Source of the DNA: the human T2T-CHM13v2.0 reference genome, Homo sapiens
NCBI RefSeq assembly: GCF_009914755.1
Contig: NC_060927.1
Length of the DNA stretch: 64,000 nucleotides
Direction: 5' to 3' (one strand)
Both the position numbers and the translations under genes were made by a program. Positions 4,606 through 64,000 of the stretch are shown in pieces. Under the pieces are notes generated by a model, which was not told the origin of the DNA, made no database searches, and saw only the letters and a list, made by a program, of their open reading frames with translations. The first letter of the stretch is position 1. Every line of letters begins with the position of its first letter.

Positions 4606-4965
<360 letters not shown>

Positions 4966-7024: not shown

Positions 7025-7433
<409 letters not shown>

Positions 7434-7800
7434 CATTGTGCTTTGTACTAACCCCCTTTCCCTGGTCTCTTCCAGCTTGTCTTCTTCTCTCCCAGTAGTT
7501 TCTTCATGAAGAGGCCATGTGCTATATTCCATGAGATATTTCACACTCAAAGAAGACTTCTTTTATACTCTTTTGATAATTTGTCTGGGAATCACTGTCT
7601 TGATTTATAAGGGAGTTTGTAATAAATACAGTAAAAGAGAAACACACAACGTATTTTGAGACATCAGAGAAGAGAGAAACCAATTCTATTAATATTTGGG
7701 GTTAGCAGGGAAGGCTTAGTTAAGAGGTAACATTTGAACTAAGCCTTGAAATAAGGGAAGGATTTGGACATGCAGTAATGGGGAGAGAGTAGAAGCAAGA

Positions 7801-8260
7801 CATGATGGTTAGTGTTATGTATCAATTGGACTTGGTTGTGGGGTGCCCAGATATTTGGCTACACATTATTCTGGGTGTGTCTCTGAGATATTCTGGATGA
7901 GGATAACATTTAATTGGTAGACTGAATAAAGCAGATTGTCCTCCCCAATGTGGGTGAGCCTCATCCAATCCACTGAAGGCCTGAACAAAACAAAAAGGTA
8001 GAGTCACAGAGAATTTGCTCTTTTTACCTGATTATATTTGAGCTGGGACATCAATCTTGTCCTGACTTTAGATGTGGACTCGAGTTGGAACTATATCATT
8101 GGCTGTCCTGGGTCCCCAGCTTGCTGGCTGCAGACTTCAGGACTCCTTAGCCTCCATAACCATGTGAGCCATCCCTTACAACTAATCAATCTGTCTCTCT
8201 CTATGTGTATAGCTCTACCTCTATCTCTCTGCTCTTTCTCTGGAGAACCTAGAACAATAC
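7801..8260 (+). mobile_element. MLT2-type (ERVL) solo LTR
   Basis: TGATGGTTA...GGAGAACC..AATACA termini; GCAGATTGTCCTCCCCAATGTGGGTG motif. Confidence 0.75.
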
Positions 8261-8837
8261 ACAAGGTTATATTAGAGAAGAGGATGACCCAAGGAAAAGC
8301 ATGGAGGCAGAAAAATGCAAAGAGGGTTTGGGAAGACTGGGGTCCTGACGGGGAGTTTGGATTTCACTGTGTGTAGCATGGAGAATCCTTGAAAATATTC
8401 AAGAGGTGAAAATTGTATTTGTGGAAGAACACCAGGAGTATGTGAAAAGAAAAACACTCACTCCATTTTAACTCCACTGAAGGAGGCATCAAAGGGATGC
8501 ACTGGGGACATGGGGTGGAGGGTAGTTGAGGCCATATCTGGAGGATCTTTACTTCTAGGCTGAGTCTGAAGTTATCTTTCTGGGGAGTGGGAGATTACAA
8601 ATCTTTGAGCTCCACTCAAGAGATGGTTTTGCTAACAATGGCAGGGTGACGGTGGTGGTGGTGGTGGTGGGAAACTGGTAGCATGAATTCTAATTGGGCT
8701 TCTGTTATTCTAGCCGAGAAAGTTGGGGAATGGACTTTCGGTAGAATAATACAGACCTGGGAATCAACTGCATGGAGGAGGTAGTTATAGGTGATGAGAT
8801 GGCTCAGGGACAAAGTTTGGTAGAAGGAGAAAAGATA

Positions 8838-8917
8838 CTAGGCTGGTACAAAAATAATTGCTGTTTTTGCCATTACTTTTAATGGCAAAATCCACAGTTA
8901 CTTTTGCACCAACCTAA
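8838..8917. mobile_element. MADE1 mariner MITE (80-bp palindrome)
   Basis: TAGGCTGGTACAAAA...TTTTGCACCAACCTAA inverted repeats, flanked by TA. Confidence 0.9.
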
Positions 8918-10583
8918 TAGGATGCAAACTTCGGAGCCATCTGCATCAGAGGGATTGATGAAGATCAGCAAAGTTTGGGAACACAGGAAAGGAGCGGGGA
9001 GGGTAATGACTTGAGGGCATAGCAGGGATAATCAAGGTTTTTCTTGTTAGCATGTGGAGACTTAAGCATGATTATATGTTAAATGCCTGGCACATACATG
9101 GTGCAAAATATTTATGAGTGAAATGACAAGTGAAGGTGGTGAGTCACGGGAGTTCCAAGGGAACGGGTGATAAAGGGAGGTCTCAAATGAGGCACAAGTG
9201 GAGAAGGTAGCTTGGGAAAGGAGAAGGATGCTTCTCCTTATAACATGGGAAAGGCAGAGGAAGAGAGTCAAGGTACAGTGATCTAGGGGTGAGATGGAAG
9301 TGAGTTGAGAGAACTCAACTCTGGGCTCTGAAACCCCTAGGAATGGGTTTGGGGGGCTTTGAGATATGGAAGAGGTTTAAAGTTAATTGTTATAGCAAAT
9401 ATGGTTTGGAATTTATTTGTGATGCTTAAAAATATTGCTGAACAGAAGTGAAGTCTACCCTAGAGTTGGATGGTGAGATTATTTAGTGGAACTACCAGAT
9501 CCATGTTGTGATTCTTTCTAGTATCATTCAGCAGCCCTTGGGCAATTGCGAGGCAAGTCATCAATGGGGTATGGAGATTTTCCAGGTGGGTGTGGTTGAA
9601 GGCAGGGAAGAACAAGTTTAGGAGCACATTACAAGAAGAAGGTGACTGTAAGGTCCAGGCTGAGCAGGAAGGTAAAGCAAGAAGGAAACATGAGGTTGTG
9701 AAGAGAAGTTTAGAGGGATGAGGAGGCAGGAGAGATGAGAGTTGCAGGATGTAGCTAGAGTGGCGATGTTAGATCTTGGGGCCAGAGAGCTTTACAATGA
9801 GTATGAAGATCAAAGGGCATTAGAATCAAGCTATAAAGAGCCACTGTTTGATGTTGGGATGTTAGGATGCTGCAGGTGGATGTCTGCACATTGATGGTGA
9901 GAACATGGTCACCCTGGCCCTGCTGGGTCTTTGCTAAAGAGACTGTGCTCTGTTCTTGGGGCCGTTTTCATCACCTGATTAGAGCAGTGGTTCCCAAATG
10001 GTGTTCTTTGGACCATCTTTATAAAATGTTCATAGGTCAAGGATAAAATGGAAAAACAGAGAAAATGTCACAGAAATGTGCCCATTGGTGAAAGACCACC
10101 AGCTGTCCTTTTTGGAGGACTGTTCTTTATTCTAAAAATGTATATATTCTATTCTATTAAAATATTTTTGTATTTGCATTTTTTTCTCTTTTATGAAATG
10201 CCATGGGGTAGAAATTTGTAATGTATCCAATTCTCCTGTCTTCATGCGTTGCCCTGTGGTGGGGGAGGGGATGTGGCTAGTACTGGCCAAGAGGCTGGGG
10301 GCAGAGGTGCAGTGTTAGACTTCTAGCCTGGAGCATTTAATTCTTAGTACAAGACTCTCTAGCATTCTTCTCCTTCTGTTCCCTGCTTGGTGATACTCGA
10401 GGTAATGCAGCCCCCATTAGCCTTAGTCTTAGGGCAAGTTTGATGGAAAACAGAGCACCCCACACCTCCCTGCAGATGTAGCATGAGTGAGAAAAACAAC
10501 TACTGATGTTTGAAGTTACCAAGATTTAGGAGTTGTTTGTTATTGCAGCAAAACCTCACCTATTCTGACCAATCATGGTGGAA

Positions 10584-10587
<4 letters not shown>

Positions 10588-10627
<40 letters not shown>
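10588..10627. repeat. (TG)n microsatellite
   Basis: About 20 pure TG units. Confidence 0.97.
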
Positions 10628-10633
<6 letters not shown>

Positions 10634-11781
10634 GTAGTTTAAAAAAGTTCCTTCTTACCAAAAAGAAAAAAAAGTAGCAACCTTATGTTGGTTCTCAAAT
10701 TAATAAAATATTTTTACTGGTTTATAAAATAGAAAAATCTGAGAATCTGTAGCTTAGAGAACTACAGTGTGGGATGTCTATAAGGACCAGGTTATTTTAT
10801 CAGCTCCTAACACCCCTTAATAGAAGCTTAGCCAAGACTTGGACTATTTCAGTCTTTCCCATTCCACATTCCATGGACTCTTGAAGAGACATTGATGAAA
10901 CGGTGCAGCCATGAACCACCCTCACTCAATCCTAGTGGCAGAATCTCCCTTTTACTGCAGAATGAGCTTCTTGCTACAGTGATACTTGAACCCCTTAGAT
11001 ATATCCTGTACTAATTATATTAAAACACGACCAATGCTTTTGCTTTGTTGTCCCCCAAATTAAACACCTTAATCATGAGAACCCAGAGAATTGGATTTAG
11101 TGTGACTGATTCCAAACTGCCAGTAAGAACACAATTAGGTTATATTTTTCTCCAGTTCAAATAAAAGAAAATTGACAGTAAAATGCTGATCAATATGTGT
11201 AGCTCAGGAGGTAGAGCCTGCTTTGAGATGCAGAAGTGTTTGTTTTTTTTAGATCTATATTCTTGAGTAAAGAAAAAATCCATCTCTCTTTCCTAGAGGG
11301 GAAGACTTTCAGAGTTGGGCTTGGCAACAGCCTATCAGAGGCTGAATTAAACAAATAGGTACCTCCCTTGAGTGAATGGTGCGTTTCTCCTGTTCAGGGA
11401 ACCGTGCTTTTATGGTGGAGTTTGCTTTCTGTCTTGGTCTCCGGATGTGTGTATCTGTGGGTGGATGTCTGCATGTAAATGGCAGTGTATACCTGTGTGG
11501 GTGTGTACAAAATTCCATGTGAATCTCAGCTTTGTGGGAATCTCCGGGTCTTGAGCCCAGCAGATGCCATTTGAAGAAAAATCACTTGAAAATGAGACAG
11601 AAAGAATGGAAACTAAATCCTAGCTCTAAAGGCACCAGACTGATTAAAAACAAAACTCTGGATCTTCTTTGTTTTGGACTCTACCTACCTCCAAATGACA
11701 TTTCTCTTTCCTATGAAATGATTAGAATGAGAGATCCTGAGCATGAAAGAGCAGATACTGTGTGATTGTGTGTATGTGAGG

Positions 11782-11998
11782 GTGTCAGCTGTGACACTGC
11801 TGACATTTCGGCTCAGCAATTTCTCTGTTGTATGTGTGGGGGTTCCCTGTGCATTTTAGGATGTTGAGCGGCATCCCTGGATCCCTGGACTCACTGGATG
11901 CAGTAACACAACTCCCCCCAAGTACAGACAACCCCCAGTGTCTCCAGATATTGCCTAATGTCCCCAGGGGGCAAAATAGCCCCATCTGAGAACTGCTG
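11782..11998. mobile_element. MER20-like hAT DNA transposon
   Basis: AGGATGTT.AGCGGCATCCCTGG and TCTCCAGATATTGCC..ATGTCCCC motifs. Confidence 0.65.
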
Positions 11999-12060
11999 CT
12001 TTCATAAAGTACAATGTCAGGTGAAATAGGTGGAGGCTGTTTGTAGTCAGCAGTTAGTAG

Positions 12061-12475
<415 letters not shown>

Positions 12476-12916
12476 AGTATGTTCAGTTTGTAAGAAAAGT
12501 ACTGTGTTGACCTCTTCTATGTGCACATTTCTTTAAGTAATAATTCAATAAAGCATTTAGAAAAATTGGTCATAATAGGAGTGATTTGTAGAGTGATTGG
12601 CATGAAAGCTGATCACCTTAATTTGAACTACTCTGAAATGAGCACCTGGGGCCACCAAGAGGAACCTTTCAAGGTGTCATAGCCAAGGATAGGAGTGTGT
12701 TGTGTACATCTCTGCATAAAGGATTTGCTGGTTACGTGGAAGGATGAAGCCTCCTTCTGAGGACACAGGCAGCAAGGCAAGTGGAAGCTCAAAGCATTGA
12801 GCTTTCTAAATGGACTTTGCTAAAATCTTGTGGATGACTCATGCTCTTAACATACACCTATGTACATATTGTCCATATAAACATTAATTCTGTAACAAGG
12901 CCCACACATAAGGGTA

Positions 12917-13209
12917 TTTTTTTGTTTTGAGACAGTCTTGCTTTATTGCCCAGGCTAGAGTACAGTGACATAATCGTGACTCACTGCAACCTCCACCTCC
13001 TGGGTTCAAGCAATGCTTGTGCCTCAGCCCCCCGAGTAGCTGGGACTACAGGTGCACACCACCATGCCTGGCTAATTTTTGTATTTTTAGTAGAGACAGG
13101 GTTTCACCATGTTGGCCAGGCTGGTCTCAAACTCCTGGCCTCAAGTGATCTGCCCACCTCAGCCTCCCAAAGTGTTGGGATTACAGGTGTGAGCCACTGT
13201 GTCTGGGCC
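12917..13209 (-). mobile_element. Alu (S-like)
   Basis: Reverse Alu consensus. Confidence 0.9.
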
Positions 13210-13341
13210 CACATGTAAGGTTTGAGTTGAGATAGAGAAACTCTGGCAGGACTGAGGAATTTGGCCACAGTCTCTGGGAAATATGCACAATTTCTGGAAT
13301 CTTCTCTACTTCCAGAGTTCCCACTTTCTATCTGTCTCCTA

Positions 13342-13728
<387 letters not shown>

Positions 13729-14359
13729 TCAGAGTTGACTCTAACACAAATTTGGTAAGAGCCCAAGGTCTGGCTGGGCAAGCACCTTGATCGGCCTCAT
13801 CCTGCAGCGTCTACTAGAATGAAGAGCACTTTTTTCTTTACTCATGAAAATGTTTTGTGCTTCGTACCTACAAGTACAATTTGAGTTAATTCTGCAAAAT
13901 TTGCCGCATAACTCTGCCTGTATTCTTAGCATTTTTCCTTGGAGAGATTTCTCAGCACATCATCTTTGGACTATGTGGAATTGGAAATTTACTTAGAGTC
14001 AACAACAAGTACAGGAAAGTCAGTTCTTAGTCAAGAGTTAGGTTTTCAAAGACAGTGGATAAAATAAAAAATCTAGTACAGTCAAGATTATACGTGCAAA
14101 TCCCCTCATCATTCATAAAGTTTAGCCGTCAGTCTTACCGTGGCTCACCAGGTCCAATCCATACTTCTTCCTCCACGATTGGAGCAGAGGGTGATTTTTT
14201 TTATGAGCAACTGATGAAGTCATTTAGAGACCATTTGCAGTAGGAGCCCTGTGTACTAGAGACCAATTAATGTGCCCTCATGGCACCATTTCTGCCTCTC
14301 TCCCTCTTTGTTCTTGCCAAGTACCCATAGTTCATTTTCCATAGATTAAAAGAGCCCAA

Positions 14360-15420
<1,061 letters not shown>

Positions 15421-15475
15421 GTGCAAAGAAAAAACAGCCCAAGTTGCAATTTTATTCAACACTTGATTGGCTTTA

Positions 15476-16970
<1,495 letters not shown>

Positions 16971-17339
16971 TATACATACATACATACATACATACATGCA
17001 TACATACACACACACACACACATGCACATACATACATACCCAGGCTCTACCTCCTGTGATTCTGACTCAGTAGGGTGGGGTATACCCTAGGGATCCTGCT
17101 GTTCAGCCTGGTCTGGGATCCACTTTTCACTGGGAACTGAGACACTGGCTGTGAGCCTTTCTGTCCTGTGATGTAGAGGTCATGGCGACACAGGCTGAAG
17201 CTTAAGGAGACCTGACTGTACGTTAGGTATTGTGCTGAACATCATCTCTTACTCTCACAGCAACATCCTTAGAAGGTTAATGGTGTGTCCCCGCTCTACA
17301 GATGAGGAACTGAGCTTTCAGAGGAGTTTAGCTTGTTCG

Positions 17340-18016
17340 AAACTTATTCTTCCTATTGGAAACTTTGTACCCTTTGAGCAGTGTCTCCTATCCCCTACGT
17401 TTCCTCCACCCCAGCCCCTGATAACCACTGTCCTACTCTCTATTTCTGTGAGTTCAACTTCTTTAGATTCCACATATAAGTAAAATCATGCAGTATCTGT
17501 CTTTCTGTGCCTGGCTTATATCACTTAACACAATGTCTTTCAAGTTCATCTATGTTGTTGAAAATGACAGGATTTCTTTCTTTTTTAAGAGTTAATAGTA
17601 TTCCGTTGTGTGTATATAGTACATTTGTTTTATCCTTTCATCCACTGATGGACACTTAGGTTGATTCTATATCTTGGGTATTGTGAATAGAGCTGCAGTG
17701 AACATAGGAATGTAGGGATCCCTTCGAAATATTGATTTCGATTTTTTTTTTGTCTATACCCAGAAGTTGGGTTGCTGGATTATATGCTTTGAAATCTATA
17801 GCACAGCAGCGTGACTATAGTCAATAATAATGTATCTTTCAAAATAACTAAGAGGCTACATTTCAAATGTCTCATCATAAAAATTGTCAGTAAATTAGGG
17901 GATGGACATGTTAATTAGTTTGATCTAATCATCCCACATTGTATACACATATCAAAACATCACATAAATGTGTACAATTATGATTTGTCAATTAAAATAA
18001 TGTTAGTTAAAAAAAT
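17340..18016. mobile_element. L1MA-type 3' end with 5' inversion, inserted in a MIR
   Basis: Minus segment 17340-17788, plus segment 17790-18016; MIR halves on both flanks. Confidence 0.72.
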
Positions 18017-19936
18017 AAGTAACTTGTTCAAAGCCCCAGTTGGGATTGATGGAGCCGGGACATGCACCAAGGCTTTTGCTCTCAGGCTCACAGAGTCCTT
18101 GGGCCACGAATGTTGAAGCCCTACCTGAGATTTCTACTGAGATCAGTGTAGGGATTCAATGTCTCAGAATCATCCCATCCTCCAGGGCCCACAAGTCCAT
18201 GACCTTTGCCTCTACCCCCGACCCTGCTGACCTGAAATGTGGCCCCTGCTTTCATTTCTGGGAGCATACAACACTTACACCAAGCATTTATGGGTTTTAT
18301 TGACTTCATTTGAGATGTGGGGCCATGGAGAGGGTCCCATGATCCTTGCTTGGTGTTGGCCAACTCATTGAATTCTCTCTTTGACTTCACCCTTCCCTTT
18401 TCTACTCACCTCCTCTGTCATGGATTGCTCTGGGAATTCTGAGCCCTAGTTCCTTTATTTTGCAGATAACCTTCACTCTTCTCTGCAACGAATCCCAAAA
18501 GTATGTAGTTGAGCTGACTGCAAGGTGCTTGAGATGCCAGAGACTCCACAAATGGGATTTGGCCTCTGGAAAGTGGTGGTAGTTCCAGATTTATGTGGAT
18601 GTTACTTTGTTTTTCCCTATAAAATATATTCTTTAAATTATCAAGCTCTTGGCTCCTGGATGCAGTCCTTTGCTGGTGGCAGTGGGCTGGGTACTGTCAC
18701 CGGGGAGAAATGCTGCCCACTTAGAGAAAGAGAAACTGGTTCTCTTTAAGAGGCAGAGGGAGGTTTCCAGTGCCAGTTTGTTTGGAGGCAAAATGGCTGT
18801 TGTATTAAAATTGCCCAAACTTGGGCTGGTGCCTTGTGTGTTTAGAGCTCAAAGCCATGATTGTTTTCATTTTCTTTTTCTTTTTTTTTTTTTTGGTGGT
18901 CGGTTTTCCAACCTTTTGCTTGGTAGGTTTCTGCTAATAGCTTCGACCTCAAGAGTCCCATTATACAGACACTAATAGTACCTACTATGTGTCAGTCTGT
19001 AGTGCCTACTATGTTCCAGGCATTGGAGATAATATAATGATGAACAAATAAACATGGCACTTGGAAAAGAGAGTCTAGTTCCCACTCTCAGCCCACCCCA
19101 AAGAGAGGCGAGAATTTGGCTTCCAAAGATCTCAGATGCCCTTGCATCGTCTCCATGAAGAGGGCGGGTGAAGCCTTGGTGTCTGAAGATAATTTGGCTG
19201 GACAATCCCCAAGGTTTGGAACGATGGGAAGGAGCTGCCATCTGTGTTTAAGGTGAGAAGCGGGGAGTGGCTGGATATCAGAGGAAGCCAAGATGAAGAG
19301 AAGGTTTTTGTGAGCTCCTATGCATAGTGGAGACCTGTTACAGTGAGGGTCCCTGGGGCTGAGCCTGTGGGTCAGTGGAATGATGCTGTGAGGAGGGTCT
19401 TGTTATAGCAGATGGCCCAAAAAAGGCTGATGGATCATGAGCAGCTGGAATAATGGAGAGTTCGGAGGAAGTAGTTCCTACCTGGCTTTCCAACAGTGTG
19501 TAAGCCCAGAATTCTTACATAAGCCCATGGAGAAGGGAAAGGAATGCTGGTAACGACAAGATTGAATTCTCCACCTGCCAGGCATCCAGGGACTCAGAGC
19601 AGATTTAACTGAAATTACAGAAATAGGAATGTGACATTTCCTACATCCGGGTGCGCTGGAGCAAATGTATTCCCTCTCTGGTTTGTGGGGAAGGAGAATG
19701 CTAACAGACAAGACTCCAGGTTTTCGCTCTTAAACCTGGTGCCTAGAAATGCATTTTCTACTGGATGCAGACAGAAGCTCCATATAGACATATCCATCGC
19801 TGCATCTCTCATGCCTTGTGTTCTCCCTAATTTTCCCTTTTTAAACCACAGAGGAAGAAAATTCCAGCATCACTTCTGGCCTCTCAAGAGTGAGTTAGGT
19901 GGCCAGGTGGGGTTATTCATGCCTGTAATCTCATAA

Positions 19937-20834
19937 TGAAGGGATGGCCTGCCCCTCCACACCTGTGGGTATTTCTAGTCAGGTGGGATGAGAGACAAAA
20001 AAGAAATAAGACACAAAGTATAGAGAAACAACAGTGAGCCCAGGGGACCGGCGCTCAGCATACCAAGGACCTGCACTGGCACCGGTCTCTGAGTTCCCTC
20101 AGTTTTTATTGATTATCATCTTCATTACTTCAGCAAAAAGGAACGTAGTAAGAGGGCAGGGTGATAATAAGGAGAAGGTCAGCAACAAACATGTGACTAA
20201 TAGAATCTATGTCATAATGAAGTTCAAGGGAAGGTACTATGACTGGACATGCACGTAAGCCAGATTTATGTTTCTCTCCACTCAAACATCTCAGTGGAGT
20301 AAAGAATAACAAGGCAGCATTGCTGCAAACATGTCTCACCTCCCACCATAGGGCGGTTTTTCTCCCATCTCAGAATTGAACAAATGTACAATCGGGTTTT
20401 ATACCGAGACATTCAGTTCCCAGGGGCAGGCAGGAGACAGTGGCCTTCCTCTAACTCAACTGCAAGAGGCTTTCCGCTTTGACTAGTCCACCTCAGCACA
20501 GACCCTTTATGGGTGTCGGGCTGGGGGACCGTCAGGTCTTTCTCATCCCACGAGGCCACTTTTCAGACTATCACATGGGGAGAAACCTTGGACAATACCC
20601 AGCTTTCAAGGACAGGACTCCCTGCGGCTTTCCACAGTGCATTGTGCCCCTGGTTTATTGAGACTAGAGAATGGGGATGACTTTTACCAAGTATATTGCT
20701 TGCAAACATTTTGTTAACAAGGCACGTCCTGCACAGCCCTACATCCCTTAAACCTTGATTTCATACAACACATGTTTTTTGAGCTCCAGGTTGGGTCAAA
20801 GTGGTTGGGGCAAAGTGGCTGGGGCAAAGCTACA
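19937..20834 (-). mobile_element. HERV-K(HML-2) LTR5A-like LTR, 5'-truncated
   Basis: Intact 3' end (...CCCTTCA on minus). It begins at the internal TGTAGCTTTGCCCCAGCCAC and lacks the TGTAGGGAAAAG start. AATAAA at 20105-20110 and 20654-20659 (minus). Confidence 0.85.
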
Positions 20835-23029
20835 GCCAATTCAAGCCAGCAATAAGGACCTTCAAAATGACCAAAATATGACTTGGTCCTTACCGTTGCT
20901 TTTACAACCTCAAAATCCTGCTCAGGTCACCTGCAAGGCACTCAGATTGTTAATCCATCAACTGCTCATAGAGATGACTCCAAACCACACAAACCCAAAC
21001 TATCTGCATTTTTTAATCAATTCAGTTAAGCCTTATGGGCAAAACTTCAGAATTCAAGTAAAACAGAAGGTCTGTCTGAACATTTTCTTCAGTCAGCTGA
21101 AATTGGATGGAGGTTTCGTTGTGGTCCCTCAAGGAATAAACCATTATTTGACCCTTTCTCTTCCAGGTGAATTCTTACCCATTCCTAAGGTATAAGTCCT
21201 GTGTCACCTCCTCTCCTGAGAAGCTTTTTCTGTTGACCCCACCCAACTGTCCCTTCAGTCTCCTTGTAGTATTTGGAGGATACAAATCAGCACATATCAT
21301 AGTGAAATGTGGTTTTACACATCAGAATCTCCTGCTATATTGTGAGGTTCATGGAGACAAAGACAATGTCTCATTTCTTTATTGCTGCATTTCTAGCCCC
21401 AAACACAGCATCTGATATCATACAATAGACATCCAACCAGGATTTGAAGAATGACTTACTGAATTATATTAATAAATATAACCTTTTCATCTAGGTGTTA
21501 GATTAGGAAGGGAATGGTAGATATCATGCCTTTTGCCAAGTTGATTAAATATTAATTGGAAAGTACTGCACGTCACATGAGCTTTAATCAAAAGACAATC
21601 TACATTTGTAACATCTAACTTTGACTTAATTAGGTTGATAACTACATATGCTATTCAGGACAGTAAAAAGACATGAGAAAATGAGAAGAACTATGGATCT
21701 AGAATGAAAGGGCGTGTATTTGAGTCCTAGTTCTGCTTCCAGCCTGTTGTGTGAGCTAAGACAAAAGCACAAGATCACAAGATGCCATGAATCACAATTT
21801 TCACCATTTATAAATGTGAATCTAGATAATACTGACTCTAGTCATCTCATAGGATTGTTGTATTGAATGTATAAGATGCTGTATTGGAAATAATTCACAA
21901 AGTATATGGATTGAACAAATGAGGTGTTTTATACTTAGCAATAGATAACAAGAAAAGCATAGGTTCTGGCATCAGATAGACAGTTTTGGACACATCTCCA
22001 ACCCTCTCCAACCTTAACAAGTCACTTACTCTCTCTGAGTTTCTACTTTTGCATCTATAGAACGAAAGTATTAACACATACTAGCAGGGTTGTGATGAAG
22101 ATTAAATGTGATAATACATACAAAATGCCTAATGCAGGGCTTCACACACAGTAGATGCTAAATAAATGTCTGTTTTCCTCCGTTCTTCCTAGTCTATTTG
22201 TATTTTTAGCTTCAATGTGTGGTGTTTAAGCTTCATCTGGAAAATGCGATCCTAAAATATCTACTGTACTATATTGCAATATATAGTGCTATCAGTTGTG
22301 AATAATTGGTTGTTGTGTTTATTAGAAAATAGTTGATATATACAAAACAAATGTTCTTGATAAAAGCAGAGACATCAAGGAAAATTTTATTTTTTAACAA
22401 AACTAAAAATAAACCCACTCGGCATGACTACTATTTAAAAAAAAAAAAAAGGAAAATAGCAAGTGTTGGCAAGGATGTGGAGAAATTGGAACCTTTGTCC
22501 ACTGTTGGTGGGAATGTAAAATGGTGTAGCTGCTGTGGAAAACAGTATTTCTAATTCAAATATTAAGCTCTATAATGTTTAAAAATTGGTCTCTCATCTA
22601 CTCACAGTATTTGCTTAAAGCTATAAATAATAGCTATGATTTAATGGAAAGACTAACACCACTAAAAGGTTTTCAAATGCTTGGCTATTTTATGACAAAT
22701 GGGAATAATAATAATAACATATATACATATATACACATAATAATAATATGTATATATGTTATTATTATATTTATATATGTTATTACATATATATATATAG
22801 AGAGAGAGAGGAAACTAAGAATGTTTAGCCCTGTGTCTGGCATATATAAAACTGTCAACAAATGTTAGATGTTTTTGTTACTATAAAGTTATGTAAATAT
22901 TTTTTGTGACCTTAGAAAATCTGACTTTGTTCCATAAGTAAGGTTTTGCTGTGTAACCAATGCGTAAGTTATTATTTAACCACACATTCATAACATATAT
23001 ATTTTTTAAATATCTAGAATTTGGGAGTC

Positions 23030-23590
23030 TGACAGATTGCATTTTCCAAAGCCAGAAAACAATATCTCCCATTCCACATGCTCTGTGACCATGCCCCTCC
23101 TCCATGCTGGGGAGGAGTCAAAGTCTCCTCCTCTTGAATCTGGTCTGGACTTAGTGACTGGCTTGCAACCAACAGCATGAGAAAGCCATGTTACAGCCTG
23201 ACTTCTGAGGCTGGGTCATGAGCCTTGCAGCTTCAGCCTTGGCCTCTTGGAGCACTCACTCTCAGGACAGACCCTCCCTGCTGGAGTACTTCCTGTCGGT
23301 TCCAGCTCCACCTGTCCTTGTGCAGTTCCAGCTAAGACGCCAGAGCAGCAGACATGTGAGAAGGGGCAGTGGGTCCTCCAACTCCTGCTTCTAGAGCCCA
23401 GACGGTCTAGTCTGAGACTAGTCAACCCAGCTGAGACCCCAGGCATGGAAGAAAGAGGCCCCTCTTTTGCTTCTTTTTCAGTGTCCCTACCCACGGAGTC
23501 TGTGAACATAATAAAATGATTATTTTACACAACTAAGTTGTGAGAGCTGTGGGGGACAGTGGGACTGTAAGTTATGGGTAACTGGAACAA
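23030..23590. mobile_element. MLT1-type (MaLR) LTR remnant
   Basis: CTTGAATCTGG..GACTTAGTGACT and CTTCTGAGGCTGGGTCAT motifs. Confidence 0.55.
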
Positions 23591-26240
23591 TGATTTAGTT
23601 ATTTGTTCTTGTACACTTTCAACTTGAACTTCCAAATTTATGGGCCCCATTCTGAAACTGGTCTACATCTGCACAGAGATGTCTCTGCTGTTGAGTAGAC
23701 CAATCTGACCAGCTTTTCAAGCCAACAACATTAAAAGCCATTCAGAGGACAACACATTGTGAAGTCGCCTTCTCTTGTGAGAAATGCATTAAAAAGAAAC
23801 TAAGACCTACTAGAGTTGTTCTGTCAAATACAGGGGCTATTGAGCACTTGAAATGTGTCTGGTCCAAACTGAGATGTGCCTTCAGTGTAAAGTAACATTT
23901 AGAAGATAGTGTATAGAAAGAGTAAGATGTCTTATTAATTTTTATATTAATTACTAATGAAATGATAATATTTTAGATATATTGAGATAAATAAAATATA
24001 TTATTAAAATTAACTTCACCTGTTTCTTTTTACTTTCTTTAAGATAGCTGCTATAAAATTTAAAATTATAAATGTCACTTGCACTATATTTCTAGCCCTG
24101 TACTAAAGGGTCTTTACAAAATATCTTGGTTTTATAATGTTGGCACAGTAAAGAAGGGGGACAAAACCATCTTTCACTCCAGACAGACAAGAATTTGCTT
24201 TATCCTGTTTGTCTGAAATTGGAGTCAATGGTCCTAATGGGTGGGATAGACCTTATGTCATTCTCCTAACATTGACTGGGCTCATTGAACCACAGACCAG
24301 GCAGAAAAAATAAAATAACACTTAAAGGACATTTTAAAACATAATAAAAATGGGAAGGAATATTTTCATTATTTCTAAATAAAATAGCAAAAATCCATCA
24401 ATCATGTTCCTGAATGAATTTCTAACACCTAAGACTGTGCTTACTGAGGAAAAATAAATAGAAAAGTTGAGCAATTATCTTGTAAACGTAAAGAAATGTG
24501 ACTCCATCTCAAAACAAAAAACAAAAAAACAAGAAATAGATGAGCTTACATGGGTCTCAGCAGCTACATTTTCCTCTGATTTCTGCTTATTTTCCAACAC
24601 CCTAAATGTTCAGAATAATAAAACAATGTGCCACTCTAAGTGGAGCAATGACAACATAGATACCAATGGTTCAGAAAGCATGGTCAAAGGGCCCCTCGTG
24701 TTTCCAAGATCCTTTTGGGAGGGTCACAAAGTTAAAGTTATTTTTCCAATTACACCAAAATGTCTTTTTTTTTTTTTTTCATTCTTATTCTCTCCCAAGT
24801 TGTGGTAAAGTTATCAAGAAGCCACATGGCAAGTGACATCACCACAGACTGAATACAGAGACAGATTGGAAATCCAGCTGCCTTCCAGTAAGCTAAATAT
24901 GCTAAACAATGCTACTTTCTCACTAATATTTTTTGTTTGGGAAAATACAGTTATTTTTCATAAAGAAATATGTCATGAATGTTAACTTTAGTGAGTTTAT
25001 TGTTGTTATTTTGAAATAAGATAAACAATTTTTAATATTCTTAGTTCTAATTTCTAATTTGGTAAATAATAATACATGGAAACCACATAAACAAAAGCTC
25101 TTCAAGGTTCCCAATAATCTTTTAAGAGTGTAAAGGTTGAGAGGTGCAGGAAATTGAGAGATTTTGGTTAAAAGGTACAATCTTTCAGTTATAAGTGAGT
25201 AAGTTCGGGAGTTCTAATGTACAAGATGGTAATTATAGTTAATAGCACTATATAATATACTAGAAATTTGCTAAAAGAGTAGATGTTAAATGTTCTCGCC
25301 ACATACAAAAAAATGGTAACTATATGAGGTGATGGACATATTAACTGACTTGATTCTAGTATCATTTCACAATGTATACATATATATCAACTCATTATAT
25401 TGTACATCTCAAATTATACAATTCTATTTGTCAATTATACCCCAATAAAGTTGGGGTGGGGGGAAGAATATAATGTTATCCTTAGGCCAAAATGTTTGAG
25501 AACCAGTGGTATATACATGAATCAACCTTAAAATAGGCACCAGTGGGGCAAAGTGGTTTTCCATAATTTAAAATTAACTAAAAACCATGGGATTTAAAAA
25601 TCCTTCTGGCATTTGTATTATGTAATAAAGATGGTCCCTATCACATCCCAGTCCCCTAGCTCACAATTCTCTCTATAATATACATTTTCTCCACAGACAA
25701 TGACATGACTAATAGATAACTTCTGTTTGCCCAGCATATCCCCAGGGGTGTGTCCAGAGTTATGTGCAAGCCATTGGTGGCTAACTATAACTCCCACATT
25801 CTCAGCCACATAGGGAAGCATCTGAATGACCTGTAGTAAGAATAGTCTTAGATTCTCTTCAGTTATTTTGTTAACCATTTACAAATATAGATAGCTTAGT
25901 AATAGTAACAAATTGTCTGCAATTTAGCTCATGATTAACAACTACTTTGACATCCCTGCACACTAGACACAGACCACATTTTCAGTTAGTTCAAATTCAC
26001 TGATTAAAAAATAAAACAGCCATAATGAATCATTAATGCATTCCAGAAACTGTATCTTTAAAAAGCAGATCTGCCTGGCATTTATTATAATAAATGTCTA
26101 TTTTATATATACATTTTTGACCTACTTTAAGTGGCATAGATGAGAAAAACTTTCATGACTTAGGTGCAATTAAATATTGCTAACATTTGATCCATTTTGC
26201 CATGTTCTTTTAAAGTAAAGAAATAACATTCAGTACTTAC

Positions 26241-26294
26241 ATATCTGCCTTCCTCACCAGGATGACCGGGTAACCCATCAAAACCCTTCTCTCC
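26241..26294 (-). pseudogene. COL6A4P1: 54-bp triple-helix exon (GEKGFDGLPGHPGEEGRY); last collagen exon seen
   Basis: Classic 54-nt phase-0 collagen exon, ctcag acceptor, GTAAGT donor. Confidence 0.9.
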
Positions 26295-27870
26295 CTGAGA
26301 AGACAAGAAATCAAAATAAATAACTTGGCCTCTAAATTATTTATTTCTCAAATCTATATGAAATAAAAATTATTACTAATAGATACCCTTGTCTCACGGA
26401 GTTGTCATTTTATGGAGAATGTACTGAATATCAGGCACAATGTGCAGAGATGTACAGAAACAAATATTCTTGTCCAGTGTTACAGTGAAAACATGCATAC
26501 CTGTTTGTCTTAATAGTATATCAAACTATTCTTATTTTCCAAAATACCTTCTTAAGTCATTCTCTTGTAAAAATCCAAATCAAGACTAGTTTCTAGTTAA
26601 AAGCTTAAGGAAAACTGTTACTCTTAAAGAAGCTTTCAACCTTGTTTTACAAAACATCAGTAAGCAAAGCTCTTCCTGCCTATCTTATTCATGAGAAATG
26701 GTTGTTTATTTCTGTATGACTCAACTGTCCAGTTTTGTTTTGTCCTTTTACTACTTCTTACACACCGAAACACACAAACCATTTCCTCTCAAGGAAGTTT
26801 GGCTTGCCATGTTATAGTCAGATGTGTTTATTTAGTCTAAAAGCTGGTCAGTAAGACTTGGAAGGCATATTTTATTTGTGATCAACAAAGATATAAAAGT
26901 CATTATGACCATCTACTGAATTCTTGCAAACAGAAACAGCAGAGAAGTCAAAAATTTAAAATACTCCCATCTTTGGCCTTAGAGGCACCGGCACAAGCTG
27001 CAAAGAAACGTATCAAGAAGCTCCTAAACCTGATTTGCTGATTCTCCAATCTGTTAATGAATAACAACATGACAGGGAAAAGTCTAATGCTAAGGCATGA
27101 TTACAATTTATTTTTCAAACAGTAATTATAAACTTTATACTATTCTAAATTTAAAAGATTGATCTGCAAAGCCCTGAAGAGCTCATTCCAACAACCTCAT
27201 GGAAAATCTTCCAAAGAGAACATGTAAAAAGATGACACAAAGCCAGCGGGTGTAATTTAACCTTACCTGTGTGTCTGTGATTATACCCTCATTATAAAGC
27301 TTCAATCCCTGTGATAATGGAACCTTGCCAGCCCTGAATATCTGAGGACCATTTCTAATGAGATACTCTCCCTTAGAAGTGTTAGGTAGTAATTTTCCTA
27401 TTGGTTAACCTAGAATTAACAGAGATGCAACTCTTTTCTCAGAGTTTGATGCTGTAGAAAAGAATGTTAGATGGGAGAGAGGCATTTACTACTATAAAGA
27501 AAGCAGATGTTGGACAAGTGAAAATACGGTAGATAAGTGAAAACTTCTGTGCAGTGGCAGAATTTGTGACATTATTTGTCAAATGAGCACAAGAAGGTAG
27601 CATAATATGGTGGAAATCATGTGGGACTTAGAGTTAGGGAGACATAGGGGCTTAACTCCCAAATGCATCTTCATAATGATGCAATTTTGGGAAAGTGATG
27701 TCACCTCTCTGAGCCTCAATTTCACACATGTAAAATAACATCTACAGAAAGTGTTTGTTAGGGGGGTAAAATTAGAAAATGCTGTTAAATACATAACACA
27801 GTCTGGTATGTAGCGGGTACTGAAATATCGTCTCTCTCCTTCCCCCTATCCACACCTGACAAATTCTTAC

Positions 27871-27963
27871 CTTCCTCCCAGAACTCCCATAATCACCTCT
27901 GTACCCATCTTCTCCAAAACACTTTGCATATATATTGCAGCATGTTCTTTCCACAATTGTATC
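27871..27963 (-). pseudogene. COL6A4P1: Junction exon (93 nt; DTIVERTCCNIYAKCF-GEDGYRGDYGSSGRK)
   Basis: Cys cluster followed by 5 Gly-X-Y triplets; canonical splice sites. Confidence 0.88.
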
Positions 27964-28114
27964 CTGAAAAACAGATCCATATCACATACGATTTTCTCAT
28001 CTGTGTTAGTCTATATCACATTACACACTAAGAAGACAAAATTCTCTCAATGTTTTTAAAATTATTATAATTAATAGAACTCAGCAAAGGATGGCATTTT
28101 TAAAAAGTACTTAC

Positions 28115-28260
28115 AAGTTGCTTCAGTAAGACGCTTGGGAGGGATCGCAGTTTGATGCTCAGAGGTTGCTTATATGCAAACCCTCTGCCAAATTCCAGCT
28201 CCTGGAGCTCTTCTAATTTATGGACAACTTCCAGGCCAATGATTAGGAGTCCAGAGAATC
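28115..28260 (-). pseudogene. COL6A4P1: VWA N1 exon c (146 nt; GFSGLLIIGLEVVHKLEELQELEFGRGFAYKQPLSIKLRSLPSVLLKQL)
   Basis: Hand translation; EFGRGF motif typical of collagen VI long chains; GTAAGT donor. Confidence 0.85.
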
Positions 28261-30234
28261 CTTCACAATTTCAACAGGTGGGAGATTACTTTCATGTCTT
28301 TTGAATGGTCTTTGTCTCAGCCCCACATATTCATCCATCATTCCACCATTACCATAGCCTTCACCTGTCTTGTCTCAAACTGCATTTTGTTACAATTAAA
28401 ACTAGTTTGTGGCATGCCTTCTTGAAGAATTTGTCTGATACCTTTCAATCCCACCAGCTGAAAGTTGAACAGAACCACAAAGGACTCTCATAGCTCTCTT
28501 ATAGCCCCCATTTTGTCATTTCACAGACGGTTTTCAGCCCTCGTTGTATTAAATTAGATCCTTCTAAGCCTATCCCTGAAGTTGACTTTTGGTTTACACT
28601 TAGGAATTGTGGCAGTCACTGTGGCTGTTCACAGATGTTCTGGCTCCCCTTCTTAAGGGCACATGATAGGATCGCATGTCTTCAGTCAGGTTATAAACAC
28701 TCATTGAGGCTCAATTCCTTACCTGTAAAGTATTATCTATCTCATGAAAGTTAGAAGTGACCATATGGCTTGCTCTAGCTAATTAAATGTGAGCAGAAGT
28801 GACATGTGTTAATCCCCAGGAGAAATTTTAAGAGTAGTGCACAATTTGCCCCATTTCCTTTCCCTTGCCACAGCAATTACAAAAACAGCTGTTGGGATAG
28901 ACCCTCCTTCAGCCTGGGTTCTTGAATGGTGAGCAGGAGGCAAAGATGAATCACTTCTTGCTACTTTAAGTCACTGAGGTTTGGAGGTTGTTATTGCTGC
29001 ATAATCTAGCCTATCCTACCAACGCAGGCATTAAGAGATCATCTGGATTTGTCCACAGAACAAAAATACAAATGAACAAGGGTATTTTGGTAATTCAACT
29101 AGAAATCACCTTGTTTGTCGAATTTCAAAACAAATATTACTGTTAATAGTTTGAACAGTAAATTCTTGGCACATACATGCCAATCAGCTTTTTGCTATGG
29201 TAAACAAGCTGCTTGAGAACTGTGTGGTTAAAAGTTGTGTACATATTCTTAATTATTCCTTAAAACTAAATTCTTTGAAATGGAATTTCTGATCTAGCAT
29301 AGCATGTAAGCCAAGTTTAGTCTCTTGTTACATACTCTCAAATCCCCTCCAGAAAACATGCAAGAATTTAAACTTCCAGTGGCGATCTATGTAGTGAATT
29401 AAGATGGGAGTAAGGTGTCATAAAAAGATATTCTAGCACATGATTAACCAATGGAAAACATTGTCCCCAGCAAAATATGTTGAATAGACTCGACTGAAGA
29501 GGAAAAGAGGTGAAAGGAACTTGAGCAAGTCAAGTTGCTGGTTGTGCATCCTCAGGTTGCTTTTGAGCCTTTACATGGCACAAAGTGGGAATGGTGAGAG
29601 TCATAGTGTACAGTTGAACAAGTTGTGCTGCACAAGAACACCCATCTGAGAGAGCTAATGCACGGCCAAATCCAGCCAGCATACCCCTCACCACCCAGGA
29701 GCCCAATACACTTGCATCCATGCAGTGTATTGGATGTCCTTCTCTAATTGCACAAAGATGCCATATAGACTAGCAGCAGGAGCTTTTGAAGATGGAGAAG
29801 GAGGAAGAATTAAGAGCAAAGAGGGCAGAATTACAATGCAAAGAGCAGAGCCCAGCTTTAGACTGACTCCAGAGTTTAGGAGAAAACGACATATGGACCC
29901 CAGATTGGGCTAAAAGAACAAACAGCCCCTCTCACCATTTAAGTAGGAGTTGTACCTTCAACCTCCAACCCTCAAAAGCTAGTCCTGTCTGAGTCAGAAG
30001 ACCCCGGTCAGTGTCAGGGACATTGTTGAAGAAGGCAGGGAGTTTCAGCCCCAAAACATCCTCTGGCTCATACAAAGAATGAGACTGGGCATCAGCCTCA
30101 TGAGCACTGAGCCCCACGCACTGGGTGAACACACAGGAAGCTTCATAGAGTCCAGTGCCATCTGGAGAGCTGAGTGCCTCAGTTCCAGTGGGAGGAGGGA
30201 GGGAGGCCCACACTGGGCAACCCTATGCACTTAC

Positions 30235-30313
30235 CTCTGCTGTGGAGAAACTCCGATGTTTTTTTCAGTCTTTTTAAATCATCATCCAGTCCATCTGTAA
30301 ACACTAAAAGGAC
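30235..30313 (-). pseudogene. COL6A4P1: VWA N1 exon b (79 nt; VLLVFTDGLDDDLKRLKKTSEFLHSR)
   Basis: acag acceptor, AGAG|GTAAG donor; phase 0 to 1. Confidence 0.85.
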
Positions 30314-30339
30314 CTGTTGTTTATGAGAAAGGGGGTTGG

Positions 30340-30530
30340 CAGAACCAGACAGGGAGGGAGGGAGAAAAGAGAAGTAGGAAGGAGGGAGGGTGGGGAAGGA
30401 AGAGAAAAGGAAGGTGATAAGACAGTGAGAGCGGGGAGGAAAAGGGAAAGGAGGGAAGAGGAGGGAAGGGAAGGAGGAAAGGGAAGGAGGCAGGAAGAAG
30501 GGAGGGAACAGAGGGGAAGGGGAGAAGGAA
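30340..30530. repeat. GA-rich low-complexity tract
   Basis: Nearly pure purine on the plus strand. Confidence 0.9.
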
Positions 30531-31561
30531 TGCATAAAATGGATATTATAAATTGTACATTTCCTTAAAATTCAAGAGTGAGTTTTTCTGGTTATGCCTA
30601 GCCTTTCACCCTGTTCCTTTTTACTTATTCTTTTATTACGCATTCATCTTTATTTCAACTTCCCCATCCCCCTGGGAAAAAAAAAGAGGATTTGAATCGG
30701 CTGAACTTATTTAAAAATACCTTCCAAAAATGCTTATAATATTTATCCTTATCAACAAAAAATACCAAAATATTAACAGAGAGGTGTGTGTGCATGTGTG
30801 GTGTATGCAGTGTGGGCAGGGATGGAGGGGAGGAGATGTGGGGGTGGTTGTTGCTAATTTCTGTTATACTTTGTAATGTATTTTCTACAATTGAAATGTG
30901 TTTATTTGCTCATAAGAAATTTTTAATTTAAAACAGGAATAAAAAATAAAACATGGATGATATTAGTCAAAAAATACATCCATTGGATGCATAACAACGT
31001 AAATGTAAGTTATGAAGTTTGGGGATGTCATTTCCTATTATGTGATGTGATAAACATCACTTAAAAGCTTTCCATCTCTGTGGGCTTTTGTGAGTATATA
31101 GTTCAGAGACAGCAGAAGGGAGGGAGAGGCTTGAGGGGTGAGCTGTACTAAATAGCTCTCACTAAAGACAGTTCAAGATGCTGACTGGAAAAATAGCAAG
31201 CCTACTCTAAATGGTAATGAGTGACCATAAAAAGCTAAGGAGTCTTAAAACACCTTCCAAGTTGTCTTGGAAATGAATTTATGTTATGGAAGAATATGAA
31301 TCACTAAACTGTGGGCAATTTGAGAGCAGGGACTTTATTCTTATATTCCTACTAGCATTATTGAGCATAGAACATCTAGGGCTTAAAAAATATTTGTTGT
31401 TGAATGAAAACACATCTCTTGTTGGTTTTATTGTGTAACAGGATGGCTTTCCTCTGTGTAAGATCACCAATTAAGAACAATTTAGTTGGCCTCAGTCACA
31501 AAGCCTTATCCATTCTACCCTACCTGATGGCTCCATAGCAAGGGTTCTCAGCATTTATTAC

Positions 31562-31896
31562 CTTTACATTAGCAGAAGAGAGATGAATAGCATTATCTCC
31601 CAAGGACTGCAAAAAGTTCACATCCATATTGTTATTCCTGGCAGCCTGATGAACCAAGAACTTCTGGATGATCTCATAACTGTATTTTTCAAAGCCTGAG
31701 TCAAAGGTAAGCTGGCCATTTGAGCCAGGCACCAAGTAGCGGAATCTTGGGTCGATCTGATCAGAAATGCCACGGCTGATGTTAGAAAGTAAAGCCAACT
31801 GTTGCATCAGCTCTGGCAGTAACCCTTGAAGCTTCTGCTGAATTTTCTTTGAAGGAGTTGAGATATCAATTCCTACAGACAAATCCAGGTTGCATC
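31562..31896 (-). pseudogene. COL6A4P1: VWA N1 exon a (335 nt)
   Basis: GCNLDLSVGIDIS...SSANVK within ORF 31520..31939; phase 1 to 0. Confidence 0.85.
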
Positions 31897-33903
31897 CTTT
31901 GAAGGTGAAGAAAATAAAATTAGTCATCTGCAGGTGCATAACTAAGCCCAGAAGATATCAGCCAATCCAGCCCTAAAAGACAAACCCCCAGCCAACCCAC
32001 AGAAGCATAAGCTAAATAGTGGTAGTTTAAGTTTTGGGATTGTTTGTTACACAGCAAAAGCTAATTGATACAATACATCCTGTTTCATAGCTTTATGCCT
32101 CTGCAGATCCTACTCCCTTTGCCTAAAGTGTCTTTTCCCATCTTCCCACCCCAGTCTGGTCCTTCAAGTAGTAGTTCAAGTGCCTGCCCCACCCCACCCC
32201 ACTCACCAAGCACTCTCTGGTTTTTGTCCTCACCTCCTCATGTTAAGTTATTAAATGCCCGTGCATGCTCATTGTTACTTTATTTGACCTTCTTCCTGAC
32301 TAAACAAGGATTCCTTGATGGTAATGACTATGCCGTCTAATTTTCCAATTGCCTAATACAGATGTTCATTAAATGTTTGACAAATCAATGAAGAAAAGGA
32401 TATAAATGAGCCTTAAGTCTCTTTCAACAATAACTGGAATTATTTCCTTCTTCCCTGATAGTGTTTTTCCTCATTCACCACCCATGCCTATACCTTGTTT
32501 CAGCAGCATGGGAGCATATTAGAAAATGTCAGGAAAAAATCACTCCCAATTATCTGTTTCTTATATCTAAAAATAGTTAAGCCCTCTTGGGTAGCTTTTC
32601 TCTGGAATTTGAAGGCCAATTAATATTTCAGGCTATACCTATACACTTACCAGTATATAATAAAATTTTGCACAAAATTCCACTAAGGATCAAAAGTTGA
32701 TGGTCAGAGACACATCTGAGTTGGAATCTGGTTGGATGAATTAAAATGTAACAACCTTAAAAGGGCACCTATTAATTACTTCTGCACAACAAGCATAACT
32801 TAGGACTGTCCAAGGCAATCCAGGACATGCCAACATTTTCTCCTTAGATCATCACACACTAGAGTATATGATGATGTAAGGATCTGTGTCTATAACAGAA
32901 TCTATATACCTGTATCAGAATCTGCAAGAACAGAACTGCAAATGGGGAGGAACAATTTGAGGGAAAATAAATATGTAGTAGACCATTCACCATGGACAGT
33001 AGCTTAAAGTTTCCCAAAAACCTGAGATCAGAGCTGAGCCATGAGCATTCAGTCCCCTAAATGTCATACTCCATGCTAGCTGGTAAGATATATTTCTGGA
33101 ACTGCCAAGACAGAAAATGCCTTCATCTCCTCCTTTCACATAAAATATCTTAGTTTGGTTTGGTTTTTTAAATATGTAATTCAAATTTATAAAAATGAGC
33201 CTTCACAGATGTAAATCCCATTTCTATATTGGACCTAATTTCAGAAAAAAAGGAATTTCCTTTTTGTAGTATGGCATATTATTCCAACATTTCTAATTCA
33301 CATTTTCACCAGGAACATTTCCAGCTGGCTCTGTTCTATAATTGACAAATGCAAGAAGCAATTTCTTTCCCTTTTAATGGAGAGGATTAAATCTTGCCAG
33401 GTAATCTCTAAGGTCTTTTTCAGGTTTATGATTCTAGAATTCTATAATTAATTAGAGTCTAGCCCTTATTAAAGTGTCTAGCTAATTTCATCAAAAAATT
33501 TAAAGACAAAGTTGAAGATAAACATAAATCCTAACTTACTATAAGGGGCAAAATAAACTGAAAAAAGAAGCTGAATCCTATATCTCCTCTTCTCCCCAGT
33601 GTAATACCTACCTGCGTATAAACAAAAAATAGGACTTTGGTGACTAAAAAACTCTGAACTACTTAATGTAGGACATGCCATAATTCATGCTTCTTTTAAA
33701 AATAATTGTACATGTGCATTCTTTTCAGATGATTTTCAAATTTGGCTAGACTACTGCAAAGTAGTTATATTTTTTTGTCAATATAAGCAAAGATATTAAT
33801 TTAATGTCCTAGAAAATTGGACTTCAAAGTTTTGGTGGAATGCAGGGTTCTCATCCTAGTCCTCCAAAATTAAGTCTCTGTTTCCAAAATAAGACCTAGC
33901 CCA

Positions 33904-34214
<311 letters not shown>

Positions 34215-62997: not shown

Positions 62998-63045
62998 AGA
63001 CCATCGAGACTAGGAAGAAACTGCATCAACTAACAAGCAAAATAA

Positions 63046-64000
<955 letters not shown>

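What the first reader, a model, noticed from the sequence alone, without database searches (positions are those of the whole stretch)
19901..20860. Candidate base-level breakpoint at ~20834 inside a truncated LTR5A
Seen: an Alu begins at 19901 and is interrupted after about 35 bp by the LTR. The LTR stops abruptly at ...GCAAAGCTACA|GCCAATTC, with no 5' terminus, no second TSD and no remainder of the Alu. Composition shifts from Alu-dense to AT-rich and Alu-poor, and the collagen gene ends about 5.4 kb away. Established: COL6A4 was split by a chromosome 3 pericentric inversion in African apes and humans. Inference: this is the junction between duplicated sequence and COL6A4 intron.
Basis: partly seen in the sequence, partly recalled or inferred. 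Interest (0 to 1): 0.72.

Follow-up and report, generated by a model that had tools for sequence, protein, structure and literature searches.

The report
Exact cut that split human COL6A4
At this base a retroviral repeat inside a duplicated block is joined to an intron of the broken collagen gene COL6A4, with the matching halves of both joined to each other 118 million bases away on the other arm of chromosome 3; it is likely the break of the long-known ape inversion that disabled the gene, and likely already published.

Summary
All 15 LTR-bearing paralogues of the duplicon continue into the LTR there; the window switches to single-copy COL6A4 intron. The reciprocal junction is at chr3:132,956,452/3. 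There the LTR's first 106 bp join the last 47 bp of an intron and the next collagen exon, on the opposite strand. Sixteen LTR bases are in neither junction. The two flanking exons are consecutive in 4 of 10 homologous proteins tested. No homology above background joins the partners, so end joining is likely. Two corrections: the Alu remainder and second target site are also missing in intact paralogues (an older deletion), and the element is the 3' LTR of a truncated HML-2 provirus, not a solo LTR. The split ~237-kb copy is circularly permuted against three linear paralogues, and its outer ends appear to split an old SINE. Human DNA alone therefore does not fix whether insertion or inversion cut the intron. 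The inversion is in print; base-level mapping in Muzny 2006 is recalled, not checked.

The parts
1..20835 (.). Arm of an interchromosomal segmental duplication. It begins outside the window at chr3:15,125,022-24 (about window -2978) and is 23.8 kb long.
   Evidence: 94-97% identity to paralogues on chr3, 4, 7, 8, 11, 12, 16
19901..19933 (+). First 33 bp of an Alu, cut off by the older proviral insertion plus deletion
   Evidence: intact Alu in the empty sites L023/L039 (chr12) and L025/L040 (chr16)
19937..20835 (-). Last 899 bp of a 1021-bp HML-2 LTR (3' LTR of a 5'-truncated provirus). The first 106 bp lie at chr3:132,956,347-132,956,452; 16 bp are in neither place.
   Evidence: probably the entry HML2.LTR158, LTR5A, span 898, in the PMC3228705 supplement
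20835..20836 (.). Junction LTR | COL6A4 intron (chr3:15,148,835/6). Reciprocal junction at chr3:132,956,452/3.
20836..26240 (-). 5' part (5,405 bp) of the cut COL6A4 intron; single copy. An intron end of 47 bp with its acceptor site lies at chr3:132,956,453-132,956,499.
26241..26294 (-). Last exon of the 5' gene half (54 bp, Gly-X-Y). It directly precedes the 72-bp exon at chr3:132,956,500-132,956,571 in intact proteins.
26241..55370 (-). COL6A4P1 coding exons in the window, collinear with intact COL6A4 residues 1 to about 1443 of P0004
   Evidence: tblastn

Best explanation
Window 20835/20836 and chr3:132,956,452/3 are a reciprocal pair of junctions at which one HML-2 LTR and one COL6A4 intron have swapped halves on opposite strands, likely made by end joining when the chromosome 3 pericentric inversion of African apes and humans split the gene. 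Shown: both junctions, the 106 + 16 + 899 bp accounting of the LTR, the opposite orientation, consecutive flanking exons, and no homology above background. Likely order (inferred): (1) a provirus inserted into an Alu of the duplicon ancestor and lost its 5' part with about 490 bp of host DNA; (2) the duplicon spread; (3) a circularly permuted copy of about 237 kb, from a circle or a tandem pair, landed in an old SINE on the RBSN side; (4) two double-strand breaks, one in the LTR and one 47 bp or slightly more upstream of a collagen exon, were joined crosswise with 16 bp of LTR lost, inverting the interval (117.8 Mb today) and leaving COL6A4P1 and COL6A4P2. Confidence that the intron was cut at this point is about 0.97; the stated confidence is for this order of events.
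For: Paralogues leave the window at 20835 and continue the LTR. The continuation is found at 3q22 and not at 3p25, and the left flank at 3p25 and not at 3q22. Against intact L035 the 3q piece ends at 6998 and the window piece starts at 7015. Both host flanks are nearest to the same paralogue among 6 compared, chr11:67.9 Mb, at 97.7% and 97.8%. The flanking exons are consecutive with 0 residues between them in P0004, P0006, P0010 and P0013. Alignment score of intron flanks to the LTR break region is 18; 74 of 196 and 94 of 213 control windows reach it. The outer duplicon edges joined score 27.9-35.0 bits on a SINE profile over 20 trial boundaries, against a mean of 20.2 for 300 controls. The 356-bp overlap at the two outer ends is only 94.9% identical, like separate paralogues (93.8-97.5%), which fits ends of an inserted segment slightly better than one molecule broken later. 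The inversion and split gene are stated in PMC9513866, PMC4777857 and PMC4316388 (passages).
Against: No orangutan or macaque DNA could be examined, so the intact intron, any host bases lost and any short microhomology are unknown. 6 of 10 proteins gave no gap-0 result: two end before the helix, three align elsewhere, and P0009 was scored as overlapping although its preceding 18 residues resemble the exon. 11 of 300 SINE controls reach 25 bits or more (maximum 39.6) and 24 extend past the join. The same four junctions arise if the copy landed in the intron first or if all happened at once (rivals 1 and 2). The identity argument is weak: the binomial tail is 0.002-0.08, and was computed for 18 mismatches, whereas the trimmed alignment has 16.
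Confidence: 0.57

Rival explanations
1. The duplicon copy arrived as a circle opened inside the LTR and landed in the COL6A4 intron, so 20835/20836 is an insertion edge. The inversion came later, with breaks in the SINE and inside the duplicon at its present outer ends (chr3:15,125,022 and 132,742,874-80).
For: The split copy is circularly permuted against three linear paralogues. A circle opened in the LTR gives ends 16 bp apart directly. The overlap of about 360 bp at the outer ends resembles a staggered-break duplication.
Against: A staggered break should leave two copies no more different than the copy is from its nearest paralogue (about 2.3%); they differ by about 5% (weak). My recall of Muzny 2006 is that it favoured insertion in the SINE first (not checked).
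Confidence: 0.2
2. One event: a circle of about 237 kb was cut twice (in the LTR and near the present outer ends), and its two arcs patched two host breaks, so that insertion, inversion and loss of COL6A4 happened together.
For: There are exactly two cuts in the circle and two in the host, each pair nearly flush. One event replaces two, and the circular permutation is shown at six sampled points of the 3q arm.
Against: It needs four simultaneous breaks. The 5% difference in the overlap suggests two source copies or an older opening. A tandem pair of duplicons can give the same order without a circle, a caveat raised in PMC7188851 (passages).
Confidence: 0.19
3. The inversion arose by non-allelic homologous recombination between repeats or duplicons at the two breakpoints.
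For: Segmental duplications sit at both ends, and PMC11312596 reads such enrichment as NAHR for many ape inversions (passage).
Against: The joined partners (LTR and intron) are single-copy versus repeat and share no similarity above background. The two duplicon arms are complementary, not homologous, apart from about 360 bp.
Confidence: 0.02
4. The LTR is an ordinarily truncated solo LTR or the edge of a duplication, unrelated to the split of COL6A4.
For: It is listed as a solo LTR in the PMC3228705 supplement (match by strand, length and approximate position).
Against: The missing LTR start, with polypurine tract and Rec-coding sequence upstream, is fused 47 bp before the very next COL6A4 exon on the other arm.
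Confidence: 0.02

Closest known systems
Chromosome 3 pericentric inversion of African apes and humans that split COL6A4 into COL6A4P1 and COL6A4P2 (passages in PMC9513866, PMC4777857, PMC4316388; Gara 2008, Fitzgerald 2008 and Wagener 2009 seen only as reference-list entries)
   Same: Same gene, same two halves, same chromosome arms; the junction pair found here is the point of the split.
   Different: The passages read give no base position, LTR or repair mechanism.
Muzny et al. 2006, human chromosome 3 sequence paper (recalled only; not held)
   Same: As recalled: breakpoints mapped against macaque, a MIR split by a segmental duplication, an LTR5 at the other breakpoint, and insertion before inversion. 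My independently show a SINE-like element cut at the outer edges.
   Different: I recall LTR5B there, against LTR5A. I do not recall the 16-bp loss, the exon adjacency or the circular permutation, and could not check any of this.
HML2.LTR158 of Subramanian et al. 2011 (PMC3228705; passages and supplement row)
   Same: chr3, minus strand, span 898, type LTR5A; position fits by a rough recalled coordinate offset.
   Different: Listed as a solo LTR. Here it is the larger piece of a broken proviral 3' LTR. No row was found for the 106-bp piece (start-coordinate prefixes 12990-12994 searched).
eccDNA-mediated duplication (Takahashi and Innan 2020, PMC7188851; abstract, passages and supplement rows)
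   Same: A duplicate whose segment order is circularly permuted against its donors.
   Different: Their three cases (C1 on chr2, C2 at TCAF genes, C3a on chr1; each about 20 kb where a size was seen) are not this locus. This copy is about 237 kb, is split across an inversion, and has donors flanked by direct repeats, close to a pattern that paper set aside as ambiguous.
Duplicon family at 3p25.1, 3p12.3 and 3q21.3 evolutionary breakpoints (passage in PMC1794428; the label 7E/FAM86/ALG1L duplicon is recalled)
   Same: Paralogues found at chr3:75.6 and 128.5 Mb, chr4, 7, 8, 11, 12 and 16.
   Different: The passage is at band level only.

Membership tests
Reciprocal inversion breakpoint pair | Both broken partners have their halves swapped at two junctions | tested here: met
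   LTR 106 + 16 + 899 = 1021 bp; flanking exons consecutive in 4 of 10 proteins
Reciprocal inversion breakpoint pair | The two junctions lie on one chromosome in opposite orientation | tested here: met
   Gene and LTR sense are minus at C3:15.149 Mb and plus at C3:132.956 Mb. That the centromere lies between them is recalled.
Reciprocal inversion breakpoint pair | Outgroup DNA is continuous across each cut | not testable with these tools
   No non-human primate genome is held (no relatives); only protein-level continuity was tested
Reciprocal inversion breakpoint pair | The cut was made by the inversion, not by an earlier insertion | tested here: inconclusive
   Four junctions fit three orders of events
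NAHR-mediated inversion | Extended homology between the recombining partners | tested here: not met
   Score 18; 74 of 196 and 94 of 213 controls reach it; both intron flanks are single copy
HERV-K (HML-2) element | Rec-coding sequence upstream of the LTR | tested here: met
   Pfam HERV-K_REC, E 5.1e-9, 36.5 bits against a cut-off of 27.5, in 1 of 5 open frames scanned on the 3q piece; purine tract before the LTR start
LTR5A subgroup | Subgroup-specific insertions defined in PMC3228705 | not tested
   No reference alignment was readable; the label rests on the catalogue row
Solo LTR | LTR alone between target-site duplications, without internal sequence | tested here: not met
   About 900 bp of internal sequence precedes the LTR and no second target site exists in 4 of 4 filled paralogues examined
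eccDNA-mediated duplication | Segment order circularly permuted against the donor | tested here: met
   Same hand-over through a flanking direct repeat against C11:67.72-67.98, C4:3.89-4.13 and C3:75.40-75.65 Mb; only five 1.5-kb interior probes over 213 kb
eccDNA-mediated duplication | A tandem-pair source is excluded | tested here: inconclusive
   The overlapping ends differ by about 5%, and chr8 holds paired units

The most novel reading that the evidence does not exclude
A circle of about 237 kb, popped out of a duplicon through its flanking direct repeats, was cut twice, and its two arcs patched two chromosome breaks. Duplication, the 118-Mb pericentric inversion and the loss of COL6A4 were then one circle-mediated event, repaired by end joining inside a retroviral LTR rather than by recombination between duplicons.
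Probability: 0.19. Interest if true: 0.65.

Novelty: already known. Interest (0 to 1): 0.33.

Why it matters
It pins the loss of a human and African ape gene to a base pair and shows that a duplicon at both ends of a large evolutionary inversion need not mean recombination between duplicons: here one copy was broken in two without homology. The event itself is in print, and base-level mapping probably is too (recalled). The part that may be new is the circular permutation of the split copy. It makes the order of insertion and inversion an open question that complete orangutan, gibbon and macaque genomes can answer directly.

Tried and rejected
Patchy similarity seen by eye between the intron flanks and the LTR break region was not above background, so microhomology was not claimed. 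A plain blastn test for a split SINE found no spanning hit; a profile built from 30 local copies gave modest support. The intron flanks at the LTR junction did not match that profile. A search with window 1-15500 scored only 1 candidate and was uninformative about the left edge. The Rec frame had no PDB sequence match. Probe L045 had no chr11 or chr4 match, only 3 matches in all. Primary papers were not held: Gara 2008, Muzny 2006 (10, 16), Fitzgerald 2008 (36, 45), Darai-Ramqvist 2008 (37), Fitzgerald 2013 (72). Ten full-text searches listed no paper that, in listing or passages read, gives this junction; this is no proof of absence, because the key journals are outside the library. The inversion tables of PMC12058530 were too large to read and may hold coordinates; its main text has no 'COL6A4'. 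PMC3627024 and PMC2736999 (passages) gave no position. Earlier scan notes were not available.

Full report
1. Observation. The window shows an Alu head at 19901-19933, three further bases, and an LTR on the minus strand from 19937. A search of the genome with the left flank (18500-19935) gave 18 places: the window and 17 paralogues at 94-97%. Fifteen carry the LTR; two (chr12, chr16) are empty sites with the whole Alu. The 15 align to the window up to 20835 (20815 or 20830 for three, by end effects) and then continue into further LTR sequence, while the window changes to unrelated DNA. 14 of 15 share the base at 20835, so the junction is 20835/20836. The right flank is single copy apart from short repeats. 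GC falls from 0.436 to 0.349, and Alu-like cover from 15.1% to 1.9%.

2. The other half. The sequence that follows the junction in a chr11 paralogue was found at C3:132,955,864-132,956,452, starting at query base 17. Read directly, this place has proviral internal sequence, a purine tract, 106 bp of LTR start, an abrupt change, 47 bp ending in an acceptor site, and a 72-bp Gly-X-Y exon. Against intact paralogue L035 the 3q piece ends at 6998 and the window piece starts at 7015, so 16 bp are in neither; 106 + 16 + 899 equals the 1021 bp of the intact LTR. The left flank has no match at 3q22 and the continuation none at 3p25. Both host flanks are nearest to the same paralogue of six compared, at 97.7% and 97.8%. 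The DNA right of the 3q junction is single copy.

3. The gene. A search with one VWA exon returned 44 proteins; I tested 10. In four (P0004, P0006, P0010, P0013) the last window exon (26294-26241) and the first 3q exon are consecutive with no residue between. Two proteins end before the helix, three align elsewhere, and P0009 was scored as overlapping. tblastn with P0004 places residues 1-1441 in order on the window's minus strand and 1444 onward in order on the 3q plus strand. So one intron and one LTR have swapped halves, in opposite orientation, 117.8 Mb apart. That is the signature of an inversion; that it is pericentric and shared with African apes comes from print (passages in PMC9513866, PMC4777857, PMC4316388), not from my data.

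4. The Alu remainder is not next to the 3' gene half. In both empty sites 488-489 bp of host DNA, including the rest of the Alu, stand where the four filled paralogues examined have 1,907-1,923 bp of element. The loss predates the spread of the filled copies and says nothing about this break. The element is the 3' LTR of a 5'-truncated HML-2 provirus, with a Pfam Rec match upstream. It is probably the entry listed as solo LTR5A HML2.LTR158; the coordinate match rests on a recalled offset, and the subgroup's diagnostic insertions were not tested.

5. Repair. The intron flanks are no more like the LTR break region than controls are (score 18; 74 of 196 and 94 of 213 reach it). With a 16-bp loss and no homology, end joining is the likely route (inference). 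Short microhomology cannot be excluded without the ancestral intron.

6. The outer edges. The duplicon begins at chr3:15,125,022-24 and ends at 132,742,874-80, 23.8 + 213.6 kb. The single-copy DNA outside the two edges, joined, scores 27.9-35.0 bits on a profile of local old SINE copies, against 17.9 for the left piece alone and a mean of 20.2 for 300 controls, 11 of which reach 25. This is modest support for a split MIR-like element (family name recalled). Both edges fall in the same segment of about 360 bp, 94.9% identical between them.

7. Circular permutation. On chr11, in one orientation, the 3q arm maps as follows: 132.7429 to 67.9554 Mb; 132.765 to both 67.9775 and 67.7170; 132.790 to 67.742; 132.850 to 67.795; 132.900 to 67.864; 132.9555 to 67.924. 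The 3p arm then runs from 67.925 to 67.9558. The chr4 (3.888-4.126 Mb) and 3p12 (75.398-75.651 Mb) copies give the same order. One probe had no chr11 or chr4 match. The split copy thus starts near the end of the linear unit, passes through a direct repeat that flanks the linear copies, and comes round to its start. A circle or a tandem pair was the source. The sampling is coarse, with five interior probes.

8. Order of events. Two cuts in the duplicon and two in the host give the same four junctions under three histories: insertion into the SINE, then inversion at LTR and intron (0.57); insertion into the intron, then inversion at the SINE (0.20); or one step (0.19). The 5% difference in the overlap, against about 2.3% to the nearest paralogue near the LTR, leans to the first, but weakly. 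In all three the COL6A4 intron was cut at 20835/20836. A divergence of 2-3% would suit roughly 10-15 million years at a recalled rate near 0.1% per million years per lineage; this is a rough estimate.

9. What is known. The inversion and the split gene are established. I recall that Muzny et al. 2006 mapped both breakpoints against macaque and named a split MIR, a duplication inserted before the inversion and an LTR5; the paper is not held, so this is recall. Ten searches listed nothing with the junction, but the key journals are not in the library, and the ape-genome inversion tables could not be read. The three circle cases in PMC7188851 are other loci.

10. Verdict. The event is already known, and its base-level position probably is too. 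What may be new is the circular permutation of the split copy and the resulting doubt over the order of events. Interest 0.33.

Noticed in passing
window 36418-38689: A GC-rich insert of about 2.3 kb with poly(T), VNTR and purine-rich short repeats (SVA-like; family recalled) sits inside a COL6A4 VWA coding exon. A direct repeat flanks it at 36403 and 38690, and the reading frame resumes across it.
   Followed up: partly
window 26241-39770: The RefSeq model of COL6A4P1 stops at 39771, but coding exons of the gene continue to 26241: 38845-38672, 36417-35995, 31900-31556, 30322-30203, 28261-28115, 27963-27871, 26294-26241.
   Followed up: yes
L031:3500-3571 (chr3:132,956,500-571) and window 49172-49760: The first exon of the 3' half has an in-frame stop where the intact proteins have Arg or Gln; the exon at 49172-49760 changes frame near 49340. 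Both fit decay after the split.
   Followed up: partly
L042:4874-5236 and L041:7022-7382: Both outer ends of the split duplicon fall in the same segment of about 360 bp, 94.5-94.9% identical; in several chr8, chr12 and 3q21 paralogues this unit is present twice, 7-9 kb apart.
   Followed up: partly
L023/L039 (chr12:8.37 Mb) and L025/L040 (chr16:5.30 Mb): Two paralogues lack the provirus and keep the whole Alu; they mark branches that left before the insertion and could root a tree of the family.
   Followed up: no
window 20789-20829: A 14-bp unit is present about three times inside the LTR; paralogues L017 and L021 have one copy fewer.
   Followed up: no
window 61245-64000: A long masked A-rich stretch, probably an L1 (composition; family not tested).
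   Followed up: no
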